A stretch of 33,203 nucleotides of DNA, from UHGV virus genome UHGV-0162190, one strand, 5' to 3'. The stretch comes from a virus. Shown in pieces: positions 6,714 through 27,100 of the stretch. Both the position numbers and the translations under genes were made by a program. Position 1 is the first letter of the stretch; every line of letters starts with the position of its first letter. The notes beneath the pieces are model-generated. The model was not told the DNA's origin. It worked only from the letters and a program-made list of their open reading frames with translations, and did not search any database.

Positions 6714-7439
6714 ATGGCAAACTATGTATCAGGGAATATCATTTCTCAATCGTATGTTCATGTTAATCCTGAGTGGTTAAAAAATGCGACCCCTCAAGAT
6801 AAGAAACTAAGAATCAATGAGATTGAGAAGCAAATAACTGCCTTTGCGAAGAGCCGAATACCTTTTTTTATTGGAAGTGAGGTAGAGATAACAGTTGAGT
6901 TCTCTGAAGGCTCAATCATCGCGAAAATCACCGCTTACGGTAAGATCATCCCACTACTGGGGGGGCTAGTTATCGGATACCCACACTTTAGTGAGGGTGT
7001 TAGAACCATGGTGAAAGATGCACATGATCTAGGTTCGTATATTAACTCCGAGCTGTTATTTCAAACAGGCGCAAAACATAAATCTGAGCGCAAGTCAGTT
7101 GAGGCTCGCTTAGGAGTTTTTGGTATTATTGATCGCGTTAACGCCCAGATTAATGATCTAAGCTTGATCTCTCGGAGGAAGGAAAATTCGCCATCAATCA
7201 CATATAAAAAATTGTTACAGTTGCATGGGGATATCCTCTCATCCCTTGATAAGATTTCTGAAAATGCCCTAGATGACTCAGATGAAAAAATAGCCAAGGA
7301 TATGTGGATTGAAGGCGTATCCGGCATATCTGTGGGACGATCGCATTTCAAATTTAATCTTAAAGGTGATGATGATGTGTACAAAATGTTGGTTGCCGAA
7401 AAGCAGAGCATTCTTGATGACCTGAAAAAAAGGCAATAG
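6714..7439 (+). CDS. Hypothetical cargo protein (241 aa) at the Z/fun-equivalent position; function unknown
   Basis: AT-rich ORF on the strand opposite the late operon, between FI and G. GGAGTAGGA Shine-Dalgarno precedes the ATG. No transmembrane segment and no motif I can recognise. Followed by a hairpin. Confidence 0.6.
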   Translation: MANYVSGNIISQSYVHVNPEWLKNATPQDKKLRINEIEKQITAFAKSRIPFFIGSEVEITVEFSEGSIIAKITAYGKIIPLLGGLVIGYPHFSEGVRTMVKDAHDLGSYINSELLFQTGAKHKSERKSVEARLGVFGIIDRVNAQINDLSLISRRKENSPSITYKKLLQLHGDILSSLDKISENALDDSDEKIAKDMWIEGVSGISVGRSHFKFNLKGDDDVYKMLVAEKQSILDDLKKRQ

Positions 7440-7617: not shown

Positions 7618-8082
7618 TCAGAAGTGTTTGTTCTCATAGGCATCTTTCACTCCGGCGTGTTTCTCCGCACAGGCCCGTAGGATGGTGAGGGCGTGCCGGA
7701 TTAACTGCTCACTGCGTTCCGGTTCAAACCAATTACCATTGAATTTTCCGCCGTGAAAGAGATTGTTTCTTACTCGACAGACCAGCAGTAAAATTAGTTC
7801 AGCCCGGTGCCGGGAACTCGGTAGTTTTTCCGACCACATGATCCCCTTTTCACCGTAAATCTGTTTTTTAGGGGGATGCTCTTCGAAGTAATGAATCGCT
7901 TCATTAAGTTTAGAGGTAGACGGGTTTTCGATAACGTCACGCACCTGATCGGAATATCCATTCCAGTCAGCTTTTAAATGGCCTCCATTGATTAAAATCC
8001 CACATGCCTTAAGGCAATATTCATATCGTGAAAACTCAATAAAAAACTCACAGGCCAGTTGTTGTAACATAAAAAACTCCAT
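7618..8082 (-). CDS. Hypothetical cargo protein (154 aa) with an R-x4-H motif (RNNLFH, residues 105-110); possible HEPN-fold RNase
   Basis: AT-rich ORF convergent with the 241-aa gene. The motif sits in the C-terminal third of a small protein, as in HEPN domains. The fold assignment is inferred from the motif only. Confidence 0.5.
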   Translation of the reverse strand: MEFFMLQQLACEFFIEFSRYEYCLKACGILINGGHLKADWNGYSDQVRDVIENPSTSKLNEAIHYFEEHPPKKQIYGEKGIMWSEKLPSSRHRAELILLLVCRVRNNLFHGGKFNGNWFEPERSEQLIRHALTILRACAEKHAGVKDAYENKHF

Positions 8083-13017: not shown

Positions 13018-13365
13018 TCAACTCACAGGGATGGTTAACGAAAGTGGCTGGCCGGTGTCGTTGTGCTGGCCGGTTAACGTGACCGTCATTCGCCCGTCAA
13101 AACTGCGCTCAGTGGTGACGGATGACAGGGTGACGCGGGGTTCCCATTTCAGCACCGCCATGTAACAGGCGACCTTAATCTGCAACTCAAGCGCCGGGGT
13201 CTGCGGCTGGTCAATCATTGACGCCAGCAACGAGCCGTAATCACGACGCATCACCCGCGAGCCGACCGGTGTGCGCAGGATATCGCCGATACTCTGGCTG
13301 ATATGCTCAAGGTCAGTGACAGTCAGGCCATCACTGCATTTCATTCCGAGATAACGCGCTGTCAT
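13018..13365 (-). CDS. W: Baseplate protein gpW (gp25-like)
   Basis: 115-aa ORF between V and J. Confidence 0.8.
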   Translation of the reverse strand: MTARYLGMKCSDGLTVTDLEHISQSIGDILRTPVGSRVMRRDYGSLLASMIDQPQTPALELQIKVACYMAVLKWEPRVTLSSVTTERSFDGRMTVTLTGQHNDTGQPLSLTIPVS

Positions 13366-13997
13366 AGAGGACTCCCGGTTGTGCCGCCGCTGTCGCCGGG
13401 GTGTTTATGGGTATGCAGCACCTTACCGTTTGATGAGAGTTCACCACCGGTGTGTTCAATGTTGCCGCGCATCGTCCCACCCTTCTGCACTTCCAGCGTG
13501 CCGGTAGTCAGTTTGTTAGTGCAGACCACCTCCGGTGTGTCCAGGGTGACGCGGGTTGATGCTTTCACCATGACCACCGGCACCGTGGCAGTAACAGAAT
13601 CAGAAGCCGTCACGCTGGCCGTTTTAATTCCGCTTACCGTGAGTGCACTGGTTTCGGGTTCATACTCAATCACCGCCCCGTCAGGGAAACGGATATGCAG
13701 GGCATCCGCCGACGCAGACGGCGCGGGGTTATCGCCGGAATAAATCCCCGGCAGAACGAACGCCGTGTCGAGTTCACCGCCCACGGCCAGAATCAGCACC
13801 TGTTCCCCCACGGAAGGTGCCCACCATGTGCGCGAACGTCCGGCGCGATGGGTCAGCCACTGCAGCCAGTCGGTACACATGCCGCCGGTCTGCACACGGC
13901 AGCGACCGGCGTTAAGGTCGGTTTCGACGATAACGCCGGTGCGAATCATGTTGCGCAGTGCGCGCGCGAGTTCCTGAATATTTGCGAGAGTGTTCAT
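13362..13997 (-). CDS. V: Baseplate spike protein gpV
   Basis: ORF 13362-14015 trimmed to the first in-frame ATG (MNTLAN...), giving 211 aa as in P2 gpV. Confidence 0.8.
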   Translation of the reverse strand: MNTLANIQELARALRNMIRTGVIVETDLNAGRCRVQTGGMCTDWLQWLTHRAGRSRTWWAPSVGEQVLILAVGGELDTAFVLPGIYSGDNPAPSASADALHIRFPDGAVIEYEPETSALTVSGIKTASVTASDSVTATVPVVMVKASTRVTLDTPEVVCTNKLTTGTLEVQKGGTMRGNIEHTGGELSSNGKVLHTHKHPGDSGGTTGSPL

Positions 13998-14080
13998 GCA
14001 TGTGAGATTGCACAATATATAAAAGTTATGCTATCTGGATTCATTTGTAGAACCACCAGACAACATTCAAGGAGAGCGTA

Positions 14081-14866
14081 ATGGTCAGCTATAATGTGAC
14101 TAATGTGTGGGAGCTAATCGTCTTGTATCTTTTGGTCTTTGTAGTATTAGCATTTTTTAGCTTTGGTAAAAGTAACCTTATGAGGCTTATTGCACATTAT
14201 TTCAAATTTGGATATTCAGATAAAAAATTAAAAAGACTGGACCGCGAGTGGCGCGACATTCAACTATTTAAAATAATTAACGGAATCAATGTATCAGGCA
14301 TCAAAGATGTGAAAATGATACAGCAGGGGTTGATTGATGGAAAACTAAAAACATCGGATTTTTTCCTTACTCGCTTCTGGGGAGACATAACAGAACCGCC
14401 ATGCATCACAAAAACAATGAGTGCAGTCCTGGCCGGAATTCTTTATATTATCTTCGCATGTTGCATACACAACGAGCAATCTGCCATAGTAGAGGATGCC
14501 ATAGCCATACCATATAAAAATATGATGTACCATGTTTATAATGACAAGGTTCTTTTGTTCTCCGACAATAAAACAGATAAGTTCTATAAAGCTTTTAGCA
14601 TTGCCGATTGCAAGAGACTGCAGAACACTTTTGTAACAGACACACTTCCTGCAATCGCCTGCAATAAGCTCTTACAGCTAAACGAGGAGGACTCCGAATG
14701 GTTAAGTCAGGAGATTAAAGATAATAACAGCCACAGAAAAACATTATTAATAATATCCCTCGTCTATTTCACTTCAGGTCTGGTTATACTTCTGTCATAT
14801 ACAAAATTCCTTTACGCCAATAAAAAAGTTGTAGAATACAAATCATCAAATAAAAACCACTCATAA
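14081..14866 (+). CDS. Hypothetical integral membrane cargo protein (261 aa, three predicted transmembrane helices) between V and S
   Basis: AT-rich ORF on the strand opposite the late operon. Hydrophobic helices near residues 12-28, 115-131 and 222-240. No recognisable catalytic motif. Confidence 0.6.
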   Translation: MVSYNVTNVWELIVLYLLVFVVLAFFSFGKSNLMRLIAHYFKFGYSDKKLKRLDREWRDIQLFKIINGINVSGIKDVKMIQQGLIDGKLKTSDFFLTRFWGDITEPPCITKTMSAVLAGILYIIFACCIHNEQSAIVEDAIAIPYKNMMYHVYNDKVLLFSDNKTDKFYKAFSIADCKRLQNTFVTDTLPAIACNKLLQLNEEDSEWLSQEIKDNNSHRKTLLIISLVYFTSGLVILLSYTKFLYANKKVVEYKSSNKNHS

Positions 14867-14937
14867 TCCTCTAAACATTGAGCGACCAGCACAGCCGCTC
14901 AATGTTTAATTGCGCATCAGCCTCTGCCTGGATAAAA

Positions 14938-15390
14938 CTAACGCTCAAGGTGAGCCAGGATAATCCCTTCAATCATCTGCACATCCTCACCGGTAAAGCC
15001 GAGCAGGGGACGCGCCGGATAATCAATTTTCTTACCGTCTTTCCGGGTTTCTTCCGACAGACCGAACTGATGCACACTGGCTATTTTCGGTGACTTCCCG
15101 TCGTAAAACTCCATTGATGCCTGTTCAGGGCTGGCGCGGATATGCAAAAAACGACTGGTGATAAGTTTCGCAAACATTTTTCGCTTAACACGACCAGTCT
15201 TTTTTCTGGCGCTCTGCTGCTGGCGTGGCACGTAGGGTGTGCCGTCCGGGGCTTTCTGTGCCATCACCCGACGCTGCTGACTCTGCCGCAGGCGCTTCGC
15301 CAGTTCGGCACTCAGTCGCCGACGCCCTGACGGTGACAGCGATTCAGTCAGTCCGGTCAGCCGGTCTTCAAAACGCTTAAACTCATTCAT
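14938..15390 (-). CDS. S: Tail completion protein gpS
   Basis: 150-aa ORF downstream of R, overlapping it. Confidence 0.8.
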   Translation of the reverse strand: MNEFKRFEDRLTGLTESLSPSGRRRLSAELAKRLRQSQQRRVMAQKAPDGTPYVPRQQQSARKKTGRVKRKMFAKLITSRFLHIRASPEQASMEFYDGKSPKIASVHQFGLSEETRKDGKKIDYPARPLLGFTGEDVQMIEGIILAHLER

Positions 15391-24455: not shown

Positions 24456-25256
24456 CTATTTCATCAGTCCTATAAAAGCTGCTGTCATGCTACCCAATGC
24501 ACCAATAGCAGCAAATAACGTTGCCCAAAACATGCTTTTTTGGCTACGAATATTCTCATTATATCGTTGTTCTTCATTATTGAAGTGATTTAACGTATTA
24601 ATTGCTTTTCCAGTGGGCTTATAACCATCTCGAGTCTTTGAAATGTCCCCACTCTCTACAAGGGAATCCAGACATAAGCGAAGTTCTTTTATGAGTCGAG
24701 AATAATCATCATGGTAGATCCATAAACGTCCTGCCACATCATTCATAATTAGAGTCTCACTGAATGGTTTTTCCCCTTGCTGCTCTCGATAAATTCTGAC
24801 AATTGCAGCCAATACCGTCATTACATCGGTTATCTCCTGCTTGCGTTGTCGATACAAATACTTCTCACGACTTAGCTTTTTATTTTGACGATTCGCTATT
24901 CTTCTAAATCTAAGCACATTAAAAAAAGATAAGTCGTCCAATGAGTCAAACTTCAATTCATGCGCATGATAATAATAAATTCCAGAAAAGGAATTTGATG
25001 TAAGTCGTTCTGGTTTAAGAATTGTATCAATATTGAAAGTTTTATTCTGATGATTCCACTTCTTAACCTTTATAATTCCGTTTGAATAACTATCAAAAAG
25101 ATAGTCATTACCCTCGTCATCCTTAATGTAAACGGAATACATATCGTAATGAATGGCACTCTCATACATTAAACTAATTTTGCCATTTTCAGGAGTCTTC
25201 TTTGACTCAAAAACTTTTAGAAACTTTACAACATCAACTTTATTTTTATACCTCAT
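24456..25256 (-). CDS. Hypothetical C-terminally membrane-anchored protein (266 aa); candidate effector of the RT cassette or an independent defence gene
   Basis: AT-rich ORF with an AAGG Shine-Dalgarno. Soluble N-terminal domain of about 240 aa, then a single C-terminal hydrophobic helix (FWATLFAAIGALGSMTAAFIGL). Lies 165 nt downstream of the RT on the same strand. Confidence 0.6.
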   Translation of the reverse strand: MRYKNKVDVVKFLKVFESKKTPENGKISLMYESAIHYDMYSVYIKDDEGNDYLFDSYSNGIIKVKKWNHQNKTFNIDTILKPERLTSNSFSGIYYYHAHELKFDSLDDLSFFNVLRFRRIANRQNKKLSREKYLYRQRKQEITDVMTVLAAIVRIYREQQGEKPFSETLIMNDVAGRLWIYHDDYSRLIKELRLCLDSLVESGDISKTRDGYKPTGKAINTLNHFNNEEQRYNENIRSQKSMFWATLFAAIGALGSMTAAFIGLMK

Positions 25257-25421: not shown

Positions 25422-26372
25422 TTAAACCGATGTATTTGCTTTCAACGTCAATACTTTCGATCTGTAACGTTTTTCAATAACCCCCATTGAATATAAACGA
25501 CCAAATAATTTCTTTGCTGTTCTTGTATCTTTAGCTTGTTCTACATCTTTTATTATTTTCCAAAGCTCTATTTCTCTAGCCATAAGATAATGCTGTTCGT
25601 TCCTAACCTTTAAGCTATCCCCAAATACTATAACTCCTGTCACCAGTTTAGGCTTATCCCCAGCATATAATTTCGTTTTAGTTGGATGCATCACGTGTCC
25701 ATGCTTATTAATAATCTTACGAATCACGCTGCAAAACAATCGATTTACATTATCTCCAGAAAAAGTAAGATCATCGACATAAACTGTCATTTTCACACGA
25801 AACTTCTCACAAAGTTGATTCATTTCATCAAACATTCTGGAATTTGCAAAATATGCTAATGGCATACTAATCCGACTACCCGTTGGCAATCGTTCATGAC
25901 AGGTACATATATGAGATAAAATATCAGCCACATCTGGCGACATTTTCATTATTGAGAAAAAGAAAGAAAATATCATTTCTCTTGTTGTTGACGGAAAAAA
26001 AGATTTAATATCTGTAGTCATCAACTTCTGATGATTGAGATGTGCTTTAGCATTTGTTATGTTAGAGCAACTTTTTTTACCAGAGTGCAAATACTCTGGC
26101 ATAGCTATACGCAATAATAAACTCGCAATACGTGTATGCACTACATCTAATTTTTCTAAAGGCTTTTGTATTTTCCGTATTTTATTTTTTTTAGAAAGCT
26201 GTTCAAAAATAGAGTAATTACCCTCATCCCTCTTCAAAGCTGATAGATCATTGATACTAACGCAGAGCAAGTTAGCCAACTTTTTTTTACTTTTAAGTTT
26301 ATAAAGTGGCGAATCCGTAATAGGATAAGATTTATTTTTAGTTGAAACCTTCAGTTTAATCCTTTTTTTCAT
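25422..26372 (-). CDS. Reverse transcriptase, retron-type (316 aa)
   Basis: Motifs in order: K-rich finger motif (SKKNKIRKIQKP); NAKAH (retron NAxxH) followed by DIKSFFPS; LPTGSRISMPLAYFAN; catalytic YVDDLTFSG; HPTKTKLY; and KLVTGVIV (retron VTG motif). Small size, no maturase or endonuclease domain. ATG overlaps the upstream HTH gene. Confidence 0.88.
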   Translation of the reverse strand: MKKRIKLKVSTKNKSYPITDSPLYKLKSKKKLANLLCVSINDLSALKRDEGNYSIFEQLSKKNKIRKIQKPLEKLDVVHTRIASLLLRIAMPEYLHSGKKSCSNITNAKAHLNHQKLMTTDIKSFFPSTTREMIFSFFFSIMKMSPDVADILSHICTCHERLPTGSRISMPLAYFANSRMFDEMNQLCEKFRVKMTVYVDDLTFSGDNVNRLFCSVIRKIINKHGHVMHPTKTKLYAGDKPKLVTGVIVFGDSLKVRNEQHYLMAREIELWKIIKDVEQAKDTRTAKKLFGRLYSMGVIEKRYRSKVLTLKANTSV

Positions 26373-26658
26373 TTCTTTTACTTACCCACTCTAGTATATC
26401 CAGAACTTTCCCTGCCAGTTTTAAACGTAAACTTTTGGATAACCGTCCTTGTGTCCCTAATGATTCTGAAAAAAAGACTAAAGAGGATACTGGCATGTCG
26501 AAATGGGAAGCATAACGCTGTAAAATATCAATCGACGGCACCCATAGTCCGCTTTCAATCTCTACTATTCTGCTTTTTGGAATACCTAAAGATGATGATA
26601 AGTCAACTATTGATTCTTTATGGTATTGCCTTATTAAACGAAGGGCTTTATGCAACAT
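26356..26658 (-). CDS. XRE-family helix-turn-helix protein (about 100 aa), translationally coupled to the RT
   Basis: HTH signature ...ESIVDLSSSLGIPKSRIVEIESGLWVPSIDILQRYASHF. Start set at the second ATG, which has a GGAG Shine-Dalgarno (the first ATG is at 26670). Its 3' end overlaps the RT start. Confidence 0.75.
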   Translation of the reverse strand: MLHKALRLIRQYHKESIVDLSSSLGIPKSRIVEIESGLWVPSIDILQRYASHFDMPVSSLVFFSESLGTQGRLSKSLRLKLAGKVLDILEWVSKRNEKKD

Positions 26659-26694
26659 AGGCAACTCCATCTTGTTGAAACTAGGGAGGACGCA

Positions 26695-26850
26695 TTACTC
26701 ATCTCCCCCTTCAAAGAAGTCAACTGCGCGAGTGATCCAATAAAGTAGTCTAATAAGCCACTTAATTACACCCCAAGCGTTAGGAGTCTTCTTTTTCCGG
26801 TTTAACTTGTTTTGCGCCTGCTGTTCGTTGGTTACTTTATCATTTTTCAT
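26695..26850 (-). CDS. Possible small protein (51 aa, MKNDKVTNEQQ...) with a hydrophobic C-terminus, upstream of the HTH gene
   Basis: Internal ATG of ORF 26695-26988 preceded by GGAGCAGG. Basic stretch followed by WGVIKWLIRLLYWI. The N-terminal part of the listed 97-aa ORF overlaps structured non-coding-like sequence and is probably not translated. Confidence 0.35.
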   Translation of the reverse strand: MKNDKVTNEQQAQNKLNRKKKTPNAWGVIKWLIRLLYWITRAVDFFEGGDE

Positions 26851-27100
26851 GACCTGCTCCTTATGTCCACGGTGTGCAAACGATATGTCTGCTCCAACAC
26901 CATGGCTCGCCCTCATAAGGATGAGATTGAACAGCACCAGCTCCCTGCTCCACGAACCCTTTGTCGCCCAAAGGGTTCGAATACCCATACGCTATACCGC
27001 TTGAATCAGAGACTCCTGTCGCTGACAGAGGCGTTGCGCGGGGTAAATGTTAGAAAGCATTAGCTTTCCACGGGCAATAAATACCCAATTGATGGCGATT
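26851..27100 (-). ncRNA. Candidate retron non-coding RNA (msr-msd) or structured leader of the RT operon; boundaries approximate
   Basis: Non-coding stretch upstream of the RT operon on the same strand. Perfect 11-bp GC-rich hairpin (CGAACCCTTTG-5 nt-CAAAGGGTTCG, about 26953-26979) plus further short stems (CTGTC-GCT-GACAG about 27015-27027; GAAAGC-ATTA-GCTTTC about 27054-27069). I could not identify a1/a2 flanking repeats by eye. Confidence 0.3.

What the first reader, a model, noticed from the sequence alone, without database searches (positions are those of the whole stretch)
14016..14937. Opposite-strand membrane protein inserted between baseplate gene V and tail gene S
Seen in sequence: a 261-aa ORF with three predicted transmembrane helices, AT-rich, on the plus strand within the otherwise uninterrupted minus-strand late operon. 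It sits in a roughly 920-bp gap that the conserved backbone does not explain. Established knowledge: P2 has only a small ORF (orf30) at this position. Inference: a moron-type cargo gene, possibly superinfection exclusion or a membrane-acting abortive-infection factor, expressed from its own promoter in the lysogen.
Basis: partly seen in the sequence, partly recalled or inferred. Interest (0 to 1): 0.55.

Follow-up and report, generated by a model that had tools for sequence, protein, structure and literature searches.

The report
P2 orf30 membrane-protein gene
The flagged gene is the already catalogued, non-essential orf30 gene of phage P2, not a new insertion; it encodes a three-helix inner-membrane protein whose function is still unknown and which probably benefits the host carrying the prophage.

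Summary
The ORF is real: window 14081-14866 (+), 261 aa, three hydrophobic helices, GC 0.37 against about 0.58 in the flanks, lying between tail genes V and S. It is not an addition relative to P2. It is the ortholog of P2 orf30, which is also 786 bp / 261 aa, sits in the same slot in the same orientation, and is annotated 'nonessential' (80% aa identity, no gaps).

The gene sits at the boundary of two late operons, between the O-operon terminator and the pV promoter, not inside one. About 29% of E. coli genomes with a P2-like S-V junction carry it; most of the rest have an empty 64-bp junction.

New here:
- The family (phrog_2407, weakly linked to Pfam DUF6216) occupies the same V-S slot in P2-like prophages from Yersinia, Pectobacterium and Enterobacter hosts at only about 23-38% identity.
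- It survives in decayed prophages and as orphan chromosomal islets.
- In one Pantoea prophage it lies in line with cI and int.
- Its soluble loops are under purifying selection.
- It has an invariant Cys pair in the predicted periplasmic loop.
- It matches no known fold or defence family.

Best guess is a prophage-expressed envelope protein, most likely acting against other phages at the inner membrane. This is unproven.

The parts
14000..14935 (.). AT-rich S-V cassette (936 bp). It replaces the 64-bp junction found in empty-slot P2-like phages and holds the pV control region, orf30 and a hairpin terminator.
   Evidence: Boundaries come from alignment with Wphi. GC is 0.37. The cassette with its flanks (13900-15000) is 91.4% identical in DNA to P2 along its whole length.
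14081..14866 (+). orf30 ortholog CDS, 261 aa plus stop. Predicted inner-membrane protein with three transmembrane helices.
   Evidence: 80% aa identity to P2 Orf30, no gaps; phrog_2407, 2e-136, full length.
14069..14074 (+). Shine-Dalgarno sequence AAGGAG, 6 nt before the ATG.
   Evidence: Read from the sequence. Nearly invariant among alleles: the first A is G in two of them.
14039..14066 (-). Ogr/activator binding site of the late pV promoter (V operon), divergent from orf30. Placed by positional homology to the P2 record.
   Evidence: P2 annotation at L001 1640-1667, mapped with no indels.
14105..14167 (+). TM1 (aa 9-29). N-terminus predicted to be outside: no K/R before the helix, K/R-rich after it.
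   Evidence: Hydropathy and charge counts. Helix 7-28 in the model. dN/dS about 1.5, mostly hydrophobic swaps.
14168..14407 (+). Loop 1 (aa 30-109). Predicted cytoplasmic helical domain carrying the family's most conserved motif, D-x-Q-L-F-[KR]-x3-G-I-N-V-x4-D-A-x2-I ... G.
   Evidence: 15 K/R in 80 residues. Conservation in alignments A2 and A4. dN/dS 0.33.
14408..14470 (+). TM2 (aa 110-130).
14471..14740 (+). Loop 2 (aa 131-220). Predicted periplasmic domain with four beta-strands plus helices. The Cys pair C177 (14609-14611, conserved in at least 90% of sequences) and C194 (14660-14662, invariant) probably forms a disulfide.
   Evidence: Secondary structure. C194 invariant and C177 conserved in at least 90% of 25-36 sequences at about 20% identity. 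dN/dS 0.24.
14741..14803 (+). TM3 (aa 221-241). It is followed by a K-rich cytoplasmic tail (aa 242-261) with N247 and K254 conserved across the family.
14872..14908 (.). 13-bp-stem hairpin between the convergent genes orf30 (+) and S (-). The P2 record annotates it as the putative rho-independent terminator of the O operon. It probably also ends the orf30 transcript.
   Evidence: P2 annotation at L001 2473-2509. Folding gives -18.3 kcal/mol, z -4.7 on the + strand, and a strong hairpin on the - strand.
13362..13999 (-). Gene V (baseplate spike), first gene of the V operon. Left anchor of the slot.
   Evidence: 95-100% aa identity across P2-type phages.
14938..15390 (-). Gene S (tail completion), last gene of the O operon. 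Right anchor of the slot.

Best explanation
Shown: this is the ortholog of bacteriophage P2 orf30. It is a self-contained, non-essential, AT-rich accessory cassette at the boundary between the O and V late operons of a P2-like (Peduovirus) genome.

Predicted from sequence and model: the product is an inner-membrane protein with three transmembrane helices.
- The N-terminus is in the periplasm.
- A helical domain of about 80 residues is in the cytoplasm.
- A beta-rich domain of about 90 residues is in the periplasm, held by one conserved disulfide (C177-C194).
- A short lysine-rich tail is in the cytoplasm.

Inferred:
- It is not part of the virion or the assembly pathway.
- It is made in the cell that carries the prophage, and it acts on its own at the cell envelope to the benefit of that cell.
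- The most likely activity is interference with other phages at the inner membrane. That would mean either blocking genome entry (superinfection exclusion) or a membrane-level abortive response.
- In this picture the periplasmic domain is the part that meets the incoming phage or a host membrane partner. The conserved cytoplasmic domain is the effector or anchoring part.

My confidence in the identity and the accessory status is about 0.95. The figure below is for the anti-phage, membrane-level mechanism.
For: Identity:
- 80% aa identity to P2 Orf30 with no gaps, same length.
- Same slot and orientation, annotated 'nonessential' in the P2 record.
- phrog_2407 matched over its full length.

Accessory status:
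- Absent from Wphi.
- Present in 461 of 1577 E. coli genomes that have this junction. Most others show an empty junction, and a few carry other AT-rich single genes.
- In other P2-like prophages the slot also holds a HigB/HigA-like pair and other cargo.

A real, selected gene:
- All 73 full-length alleles retrieved are intact at 261 aa with no indels.
- Overall dN/dS is 0.45. The two soluble loops are at 0.24-0.33, and the excess change is confined to TM1 and TM3.
- Family members at about 20% identity keep the three-helix plan, the loop-1 motif and the Cys pair.

Benefit to the host rather than the virion:
- orf30 is intact in the defective P2-like prophage of E. coli B, where S through the portal gene is deleted or truncated.
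- Homologs occur as orphan AT-rich islets in Enterobacter chromosomes.
- One homolog sits at an att site in Pantoea ARC270 with no prophage beside it.

Expression in lysogens (indirect): in a 186-like Pantoea prophage the homolog follows cI, a yebY-like gene and int on one strand, with gaps of 8, 22 and -8 bp.

Topology:
- Hydropathy and the positive-inside rule.
- AlphaFold model with pLDDT 84.7 and pTM 0.74.

Precedent, from my own knowledge and not tested here: the other P2 cargo genes old, tin and fun(Z) are all phage-exclusion genes. Small inner-membrane proteins encoded by morons among tail genes can be superinfection-exclusion factors (HK97 gp15).
Against: - No similarity to any known defence or exclusion family: PADLOC none, Pfam and NCBIfam none, PDB sequence profile none.
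- No consensus-like promoter upstream.
- No sign of diversifying selection in the periplasmic or cytoplasmic domains, which an arms-race protein might show.
- From my own knowledge, the classical exclusion phenotypes of P2 lysogens map to old, tin and fun, and P2 vir and heteroimmune P2 derivatives plate on P2 lysogens. So any target must lie outside the classical test phages and outside P2 itself.
- No paper in the searchable library reports a phenotype.
Confidence: 0.4

Rival explanations
1. An envelope lysogenic-conversion factor unrelated to phage defence. The membrane protein would protect or adapt the host in some other way. Examples are orphan immunity to a membrane-targeting bacteriocin or a contact-dependent or type VI effector, or a change in envelope physiology.
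For: It has the same features as the best explanation: single gene, inner membrane, AT-rich, kept in decayed prophages and as orphan islets. The soluble domains are under purifying selection with no arms-race signature. There is no link to any defence family. From my own knowledge, small polytopic inner-membrane proteins are the usual form of immunity proteins against pore-forming toxins.
Against: No toxin or effector gene lies next to any copy examined. The family's most consistent home is a phage cargo slot. From my own knowledge, the other cargo loci of P2 encode phage exclusion. No homology to known immunity families was seen.
Confidence: 0.2
2. A host-specific helper of the phage's own cycle. 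The membrane protein would be made during infection and would tune lysis timing, genome ejection or assembly at the membrane. It would be dispensable in laboratory hosts but useful in some natural ones.
For: Family members keep the same position and the same orientation, divergent from V, in P2-like prophages whose closest proteins come from E. coli, Yersinia, Pectobacterium and Enterobacter. They do so while diverging to about 23% identity, which looks more like long residence than random cargo. The start codon lies 15 bp from the late-promoter activator site. The lysis genes lie just beyond R and S.
Against: It is absent from about 71% of E. coli genomes that have the junction, and from viable phages such as Wphi. 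It is marked nonessential in P2. It is retained where the phage is dead or gone. The Pantoea copy sits in the lysogenic operon. An Ogr site centred at about -55 would place a + strand start inside the ORF, so late activation of orf30 from that site is unlikely (inference).
Confidence: 0.15
3. Selfish or neutral cargo with no current function, carried along because the operon boundary tolerates insertions.
For: No phenotype is known. Overall constraint is relaxed compared with the neighbours (dN/dS 0.45 against 0.08-0.14). No promoter was found.
Against: All 73 alleles have intact frames with no indels, in DNA where stops arise easily. dN/dS is 0.24-0.33 in the soluble loops. The architecture, motif and Cys pair are conserved at about 20% identity across genera. 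The AlphaFold model is confident.
Confidence: 0.05

Closest known systems
Bacteriophage P2 Orf30 (AAD03281.1; UniProt name 'Uncharacterized 30.4 kDa protein in S-V intergenic region')
   Same: Same length (261 aa), 80% aa identity with no gaps, same slot between S and V, same orientation, same flanking pV activator site and terminator hairpin.
   Different: An allele about 20% diverged in protein, while the neighbouring V, W, S and R proteins are 96-97% identical. The changes concentrate in the transmembrane helices.
PHROG family phrog_2407 (unknown function) and Pfam DUF6216 (PF19723)
   Same: phrog_2407 matches the protein over its full length (2e-136). It also matches the distant Yersinia, Pantoea and Enterobacter members. 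A profile built from Orf30 alleles finds about 250-270-aa proteins, some of which carry DUF6216.
   Different: The window protein itself does not hit DUF6216 at E <= 1. Only 9 of 25 family members do, and weakly (best 8.7e-07). Neither family has an assigned function.
HK97 gp15 and other inner-membrane superinfection-exclusion proteins (P22 SieA, T4 Imm); recalled from memory, not tested
   Same: They work alike in outline. A small inner-membrane protein is encoded by an accessory gene, lies among tail genes in the case of gp15, is expressed from the prophage, and acts alone at the DNA-entry step.
   Different: No sequence or fold similarity was detected. Orf30 is larger and has two sizeable soluble domains. 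No exclusion phenotype is known for it.
The other P2 cargo loci: old and tin (TO region) and fun(Z)
   Same: AT-rich, non-essential, variable between P2-like phages, and grouped with orf30 as loci predicted to hold horizontally acquired genes (PMC3091744; bioRxiv 10.1101/2024.10.15.618418).
   Different: Those loci have known exclusion phenotypes and high cargo turnover (PMC9122126). The S-V slot is mostly empty or holds one family, and it was not among the hotspots described in those studies.
Claudin/TARP-like and SURF1-like membrane folds

Membership tests
P2 Orf30 orthologous group | Full-length, collinear protein similarity to P2 Orf30 | tested here: met
   80% identity, 87% positives, 0 gaps over 261/261 residues, E 3e-160.
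P2 Orf30 orthologous group | Located between S and V, divergent from V, in a P2-like genome | tested here: met
   Window ORF map against the P2 record. The same arrangement is seen in the roughly 75 IMG/VR loci with P2-type alleles.
PHROG phrog_2407 | Significant full-length match to the family profile | tested here: met
   E 2.2e-136, residues 1-261 on profile positions 1-261.
Pfam DUF6216 (PF19723) | The protein matches the family model at or above the curated cut-off | tested here: not met
   No DUF6216 hit at E <= 1 for the window protein.
Pfam DUF6216 (PF19723) | Transitive homology through intermediate sequences | tested here: inconclusive
   An Orf30 profile finds P0035 (E 1.9e-07), which carries a precomputed PF19723 hit. 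9 of 25 aligned members hit PF19723, best 8.7e-07. No profile-profile comparison with the Pfam model was possible.
Moron (accessory gene unit in a phage genome) | Present in some and absent from other closely related genomes, at a precise junction | tested here: met
   The Wphi junction is empty, with breakpoints at the V start and the S stop. 461 of 1577 E. coli genomes with the junction carry the gene.
Moron (accessory gene unit in a phage genome) | Base composition unlike the surrounding genome | tested here: met
   GC 0.37 against 0.57-0.61 in the flanks. Homologs are at 0.33-0.35 whatever the flank.
Moron (accessory gene unit in a phage genome) | Its own promoter and terminator | tested here: inconclusive
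   A terminator-like hairpin lies at 14872-14908. No sigma-70-like site at 9/12 is found on the + strand upstream.
Moron (accessory gene unit in a phage genome) | Expressed from the repressed prophage | not testable with these tools
   The only evidence is indirect: the Pantoea homolog is collinear with cI and int.
Superinfection-exclusion proteins | Membrane location | tested here: met
   This is a prediction only: three hydrophobic helices and a confident model.
Superinfection-exclusion proteins | Homology to a described exclusion family | tested here: not met
   PHROGs gives only the unknown-function family phrog_2407. Pfam, NCBIfam and PADLOC give none. No fold match.
Superinfection-exclusion proteins | Blocks genome entry of a superinfecting phage without blocking adsorption | not testable with these tools
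   Needs plating, adsorption and DNA-entry assays.
Known anti-phage defence systems (PADLOC-DB 2.0) | Match to any defence-protein model | tested here: not met
   0 families for the window protein. Of the four homologs tested, three have no hit and the fourth (P0047) only a weak Csx16 match (E 0.0032).
   Absent from Wphi and many Peduovirus isolates. Marked nonessential in P2. No structural-protein similarity.

The most novel reading that the evidence does not exclude
Orf30 and its relatives (phrog_2407, on the edge of DUF6216) are a previously unrecognised family of single-gene inner-membrane anti-phage determinants, acting by exclusion or by abortive infection. They have lived at the S-V junction of P2-like phages across Enterobacterales and are repeatedly kept by the host after the prophage decays. 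On this reading the best-studied P2 genome still hides a fourth exclusion gene.
Probability: 0.3. Interest if true: 0.55.

Novelty: already known. Interest (0 to 1): 0.27.

Why it matters
As a finding it is ordinary: the flagged ORF is a catalogued gene of the model phage P2, and its cargo nature is already in the literature. What remains of interest is that orf30 appears to be still without a function; no paper in the searchable library reports one. The analysis here gives concrete handles for an experiment:
- a predicted topology;
- a conserved periplasmic Cys pair and a conserved cytoplasmic motif to mutate;
- natural presence/absence pairs and diverged alleles;
- evidence that the host keeps the gene after the phage dies.

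If it proves to be an anti-phage membrane protein, it would add a single-gene system found in about 8% of complete E. coli genomes (464 of 5426).

Tried and rejected
1. Helix-hairpin-helix reading of the loop-1 motif (QLFK-x3-GINV-x4-DA-x2-I). Scanning loop-1 and loop-2 segments of several members against Pfam at E <= 10 gave only noise, so I dropped it.
3. Diversifying selection as a sign of an arms race. Sliding-window Nei-Gojobori analysis shows dN/dS > 1 only in TM1 and TM3, as hydrophobic swaps. The variable beta-hairpin at aa 155-176 is at 0.41. No support.
4. A promoter for orf30. The consensus scan found none upstream on the + strand. The 81-bp spacer is nearly invariant, but that is expected because it holds pV. 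Orphan copies in Enterobacter gave no clear upstream site either.
5. Late (Ogr) activation of orf30 from the shared site. The geometry would put the transcription start inside the ORF. I rejected it by inference.
6. An RNA element in the cassette. Rfam gave only sub-threshold miRNA noise on the hairpin.
7. The first structure prediction, with 5 close alleles, was unusable (pLDDT 48). It became confident only with the 36-sequence family alignment.
8. The search for related loci with the 25-sequence alignment failed for lack of a conserved stretch. A 4-sequence alignment and single proteins worked.
9. Literature. No functional study of P2 orf30 or DUF6216 is in the searchable library. The Christie and Calendar P2 review is not held.
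Full report
**What is there**

Window 14081-14866 (+) is an ATG-initiated ORF of 261 codons. It follows a strong AAGGAG ribosome-binding site. GC is 0.36-0.40, against 0.57-0.61 on both sides. At its base composition, an open frame of this length has a chance probability of about 4e-9. Kyte-Doolittle scanning gives three hydrophobic segments at about aa 9-29, 110-130 and 221-241.

The ORF lies between gene V and gene S. V is the baseplate spike gene, 13362-13999 on the minus strand; its real start is the ATG at 13999. S is the tail completion gene, 14938-15390 on the minus strand. So the sequence-level part of the finding is correct.

**What it is**

The window is a P2-like (Peduovirus) genome: the first 25 kb match many Peduovirus genomes at about 96-97% identity. 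The S-V region aligns along its whole length with phage P2 at 91.4% DNA identity.

The P2 GenBank record shows the same layout:
- orf30, 786 bp / 261 aa, on the strand opposite to S and V, annotated 'nonessential';
- on one side, the activator (Ogr) binding site and start site of the V operon;
- on the other side, the putative rho-independent terminator of the O operon.

The window protein and P2 Orf30 are 80% identical over 261 of 261 residues, with no gaps. The protein matches phrog_2407 (unknown function) over its full length. It matches nothing in Pfam, NCBIfam or PADLOC.

The literature gives 786 bp for P2 orf30 (PMC2771037). One paper calls it 'short, 261-bp-long', apparently giving the length in residues as base pairs (PMC6823313). 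The cassette also does not interrupt an operon. It sits at the boundary between the O and V late operons.

**The cassette and its distribution**

Compared with Wphi, a viable P2-like phage that lacks orf30, homology breaks exactly at the V start codon and the S stop codon. Window 14000-14935 (936 bp) replaces 64 bp. The cassette thus brings its own version of the pV control region, orf30, and a 13-bp-stem hairpin at 14872-14908 (-18.3 kcal/mol, z -4.7).

Among 5426 complete E. coli genomes:
- 1577 have this junction;
- 461 of these (29%) carry orf30;
- most of the rest have the empty junction;
- a few carry other AT-rich single genes of unknown function: a 357-aa protein with two C-terminal hydrophobic segments, a 247-aa soluble protein, and a 246-aa Cys-rich protein.

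Two published surveys of P2 hotspots describe the old/tin and Z/fun loci but not this one (PMC9122126; bioRxiv 10.1101/2024.10.15.618418). An older comparative paper lists orf30 as one of three loci predicted to hold horizontally acquired genes (PMC3091744).

**The family is wider and older than the P2 clade**

A word-indexed search found only four 90%-identity clusters, all at least 75% identical to the query. An exhaustive HMMER profile search found 42 clusters at the 50% level, many of them full-length proteins of 250-270 aa at about 20% identity. Nine of 25 aligned members weakly match Pfam DUF6216, and one carries it as a precomputed annotation. No paper in the library studies DUF6216: the single hit is an unrelated wastewater paper that mentions it once.

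Source names place the subfamilies in these hosts, always as 'hypothetical protein':
- E. coli and E. marmotae;
- Yersinia enterocolitica, Y. kristensenii and Y. frederiksenii;
- Pectobacterium;
- Enterobacter;
- Pantoea.

The subtypes whose clusters are named Yersinia, Pectobacterium or Enterobacter are only 23-38% identical to Orf30. Yet in the IMG/VR and genome contigs that encode them they occupy the same V-S slot, divergent from V, in P2-like prophages. In those prophages V is 75-86% identical and S 46-51% identical to the window's. In some of them the slot also holds further cargo: a 273-aa membrane protein, an ORF6N/Bro-like gene, and a HigB/HigA-like pair. Those last labels are my reading of the translations, not domain searches. 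Every family gene examined has GC 0.33-0.35, whatever its flank (0.48-0.62).

**Copies outside the slot**

- In a 186-like prophage of Pantoea sp. S-LA4, the homolog is the last gene of a same-strand run: cI, a yebY-like gene, int, then the orf30-like gene, with gaps of 8, 22 and -8 bp. It lies inside the prophage end. This layout implies co-transcription with the repressor in the lysogen.
- In Pantoea ARC270, a homolog sits at the same att site with no prophage.
- In Enterobacter cloacae and two other Enterobacter genomes, homologs are orphan AT-rich islets among housekeeping genes, with no phage genes nearby.
- In E. coli B, the defective P2-like prophage has lost the S-to-portal region but keeps an intact orf30.

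**Selection**

In the P2-type clade, the V, W, S and R proteins are 95-100% identical to the window's in nearly all loci, while Orf30 ranges from 74 to 100%. All 73 full-length alleles are intact, at 261 codons, with no indels.

| Gene or region | dN/dS |
|---|---|
| orf30, whole gene | 0.45 |
| V, W, S, R | 0.08-0.14 |
| Cytoplasmic loop (aa 30-109) | 0.33 |
| Periplasmic loop (aa 131-220) | 0.24 |
| N-terminus and TM1 (aa 1-29); aa 9-29 alone | 1.2; 1.5 |
| TM3 (aa 221-241) | about 1.6 |

In TM1 and TM3 the changes are mostly hydrophobic swaps. So this is a functional protein with loosely constrained membrane anchors. There is no diversifying signal in the soluble parts.

**Structure and topology**

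With 5 close alleles, AlphaFold failed (pLDDT 48). With a 36-sequence family alignment it gave a confident model (pLDDT 84.7, pTM 0.74):
- TM1 (helix 7-28);
- four helices in loop 1;
- TM2 (helix 109-134);
- four beta-strands (141-173) plus two short helices in loop 2;
- one long helix (202-260) that contains TM3.

Three observations fix the predicted topology. No K/R precedes TM1. Loop 1 holds 15 K/R. The C-terminal tail is lysine-rich. Together these put the N-terminus in the periplasm, loop 1 in the cytoplasm, loop 2 in the periplasm and the C-terminus in the cytoplasm.

Loop 2 carries the only family-wide cysteines. C194 is invariant and C177 is conserved in at least 90% of sequences. That fits a periplasmic disulfide. 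I could not measure the Cys-Cys distance because model coordinates are not exposed.

The strongest family motif, D-x-Q-L-F-[KR]-x3-G-I-N-V-x4-D-A-x2-I, lies in cytoplasmic loop 1. I tested a helix-hairpin-helix reading of it and found no support.

**Expression signals**

No sigma-70-like site at 9 of 12 matches lies upstream on the + strand. The 81-bp V-orf30 spacer is almost invariant among alleles, but it also holds pV. An Ogr site centred at about -55 would put a + strand start inside the ORF, so late activation from that site is unlikely (inference). The hairpin after the stop codon can end both convergent transcripts. Whether and when orf30 is transcribed remains open.

**How it most likely works**

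Shown:
- identity with P2 orf30;
- accessory status;
- membrane-protein architecture (predicted);
- purifying selection;
- persistence without a functional phage.

Inferred: the protein acts alone at the envelope of the cell that carries it. The most probable activity is interference with other phages at the inner membrane, by exclusion of genome entry or by a membrane-level abortive response. I put this at about 0.4. The reasons are the company it keeps in phage cargo slots, the nature of the other P2 cargo genes, and precedents such as HK97 gp15. The last two rest on my own knowledge.

Against this reading:
- no homology to any known exclusion or defence family;
- no arms-race signature;
- from my own knowledge, classical P2 exclusion phenotypes all map to old, tin and fun.

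Rivals are another kind of envelope conversion such as orphan toxin immunity (0.2), a host-specific helper of the phage cycle (0.15), and functionless cargo (0.05).

**Verdict**

The interpretation as cargo is right and is already published. The proposed function is plausible and untested. Novelty: already known. Interest is low to moderate, carried by the fact that a gene of the model phage P2 is still unexplained and by the family-level facts assembled here.

Noticed in passing
window 25422-26670 (-): The AT-rich old/tin (TO) hotspot of this phage carries a type VI retron-like pair. The 316-aa reverse transcriptase matches PADLOC RT_VI at 2.5e-106 and Pfam RVT_1. The overlapping 104-aa HTH protein matches PADLOC HTH_VI at 2.5e-31.
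   Followed up: partly
window 24456-25256 (-) and 26695-26988 (-): Two further ORFs in the same AT-rich hotspot, 266 aa and 97 aa, have no Pfam or PADLOC match.
   Followed up: partly
window 6714-7439 (+) and 7618-8082 (-): The Z/fun-type slot next to the tail-fibre assembly gene is AT-rich (GC 0.41-0.44). It holds a 241-aa ORF and a 154-aa ORF with no Pfam or PADLOC match.
   Followed up: partly
L087 8955-9776 (-); L103 4507-6258; L104 7796-9436: In Enterobacter- and Pectobacterium-type P2-like prophages, the V-S slot holds extra cargo beside the orf30 homolog. These are a 273-aa protein with N-terminal hydrophobic segments, an ORF6N/Bro-like protein, and a 104-aa plus 113-aa pair that looks like HigB/HigA. 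The labels come from reading the translations.
   Followed up: partly
L095 879-1952 (+); L096 882-1625 (+); L097 876-1616 (-): Three alternative single-gene cargos occupy the E. coli S-V slot. They belong to phrog_9373, phrog_12680 and phrog_10503, all of unknown function, with GC 0.32-0.36. The third is Cys-rich with a sub-threshold HNH_5 hit.
   Followed up: partly
L098 11669-15358 (-): The defective P2-like prophage of E. coli B carries an annotated 'ABC-three component system' plus an AAA ATPase in its old/tin slot. It also has a glycosyltransferase family 2 gene next to the tail-fibre gene.
   Followed up: no
L105 7001-7765 (Enterobacter cloacae): An orphan orf30-family gene sits between a peptidase U32 gene (yegQ-like) and a DAGK_cat gene (yegS-like). 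From memory, this interval holds a cryptic P2 remnant (ogrK, yegZ) in E. coli K-12, so it may mark an old P2-type attachment site.
   Followed up: no
L014 (Actinacidiphila cocklensis DSM 42063, 579-bp contig): A 579-bp contig in a Streptomycetaceae assembly encodes the 5' end of P2 V (98% identity) and the start of orf30 (84% identity). This is most likely E. coli or P2 contamination of that assembly.
   Followed up: no
PMC6823313: The R18C paper describes P2 ORF30 as 'short, 261-bp-long'. The P2 record gives 786 bp / 261 aa, so the stated length seems to be residues given as base pairs.
   Followed up: yes
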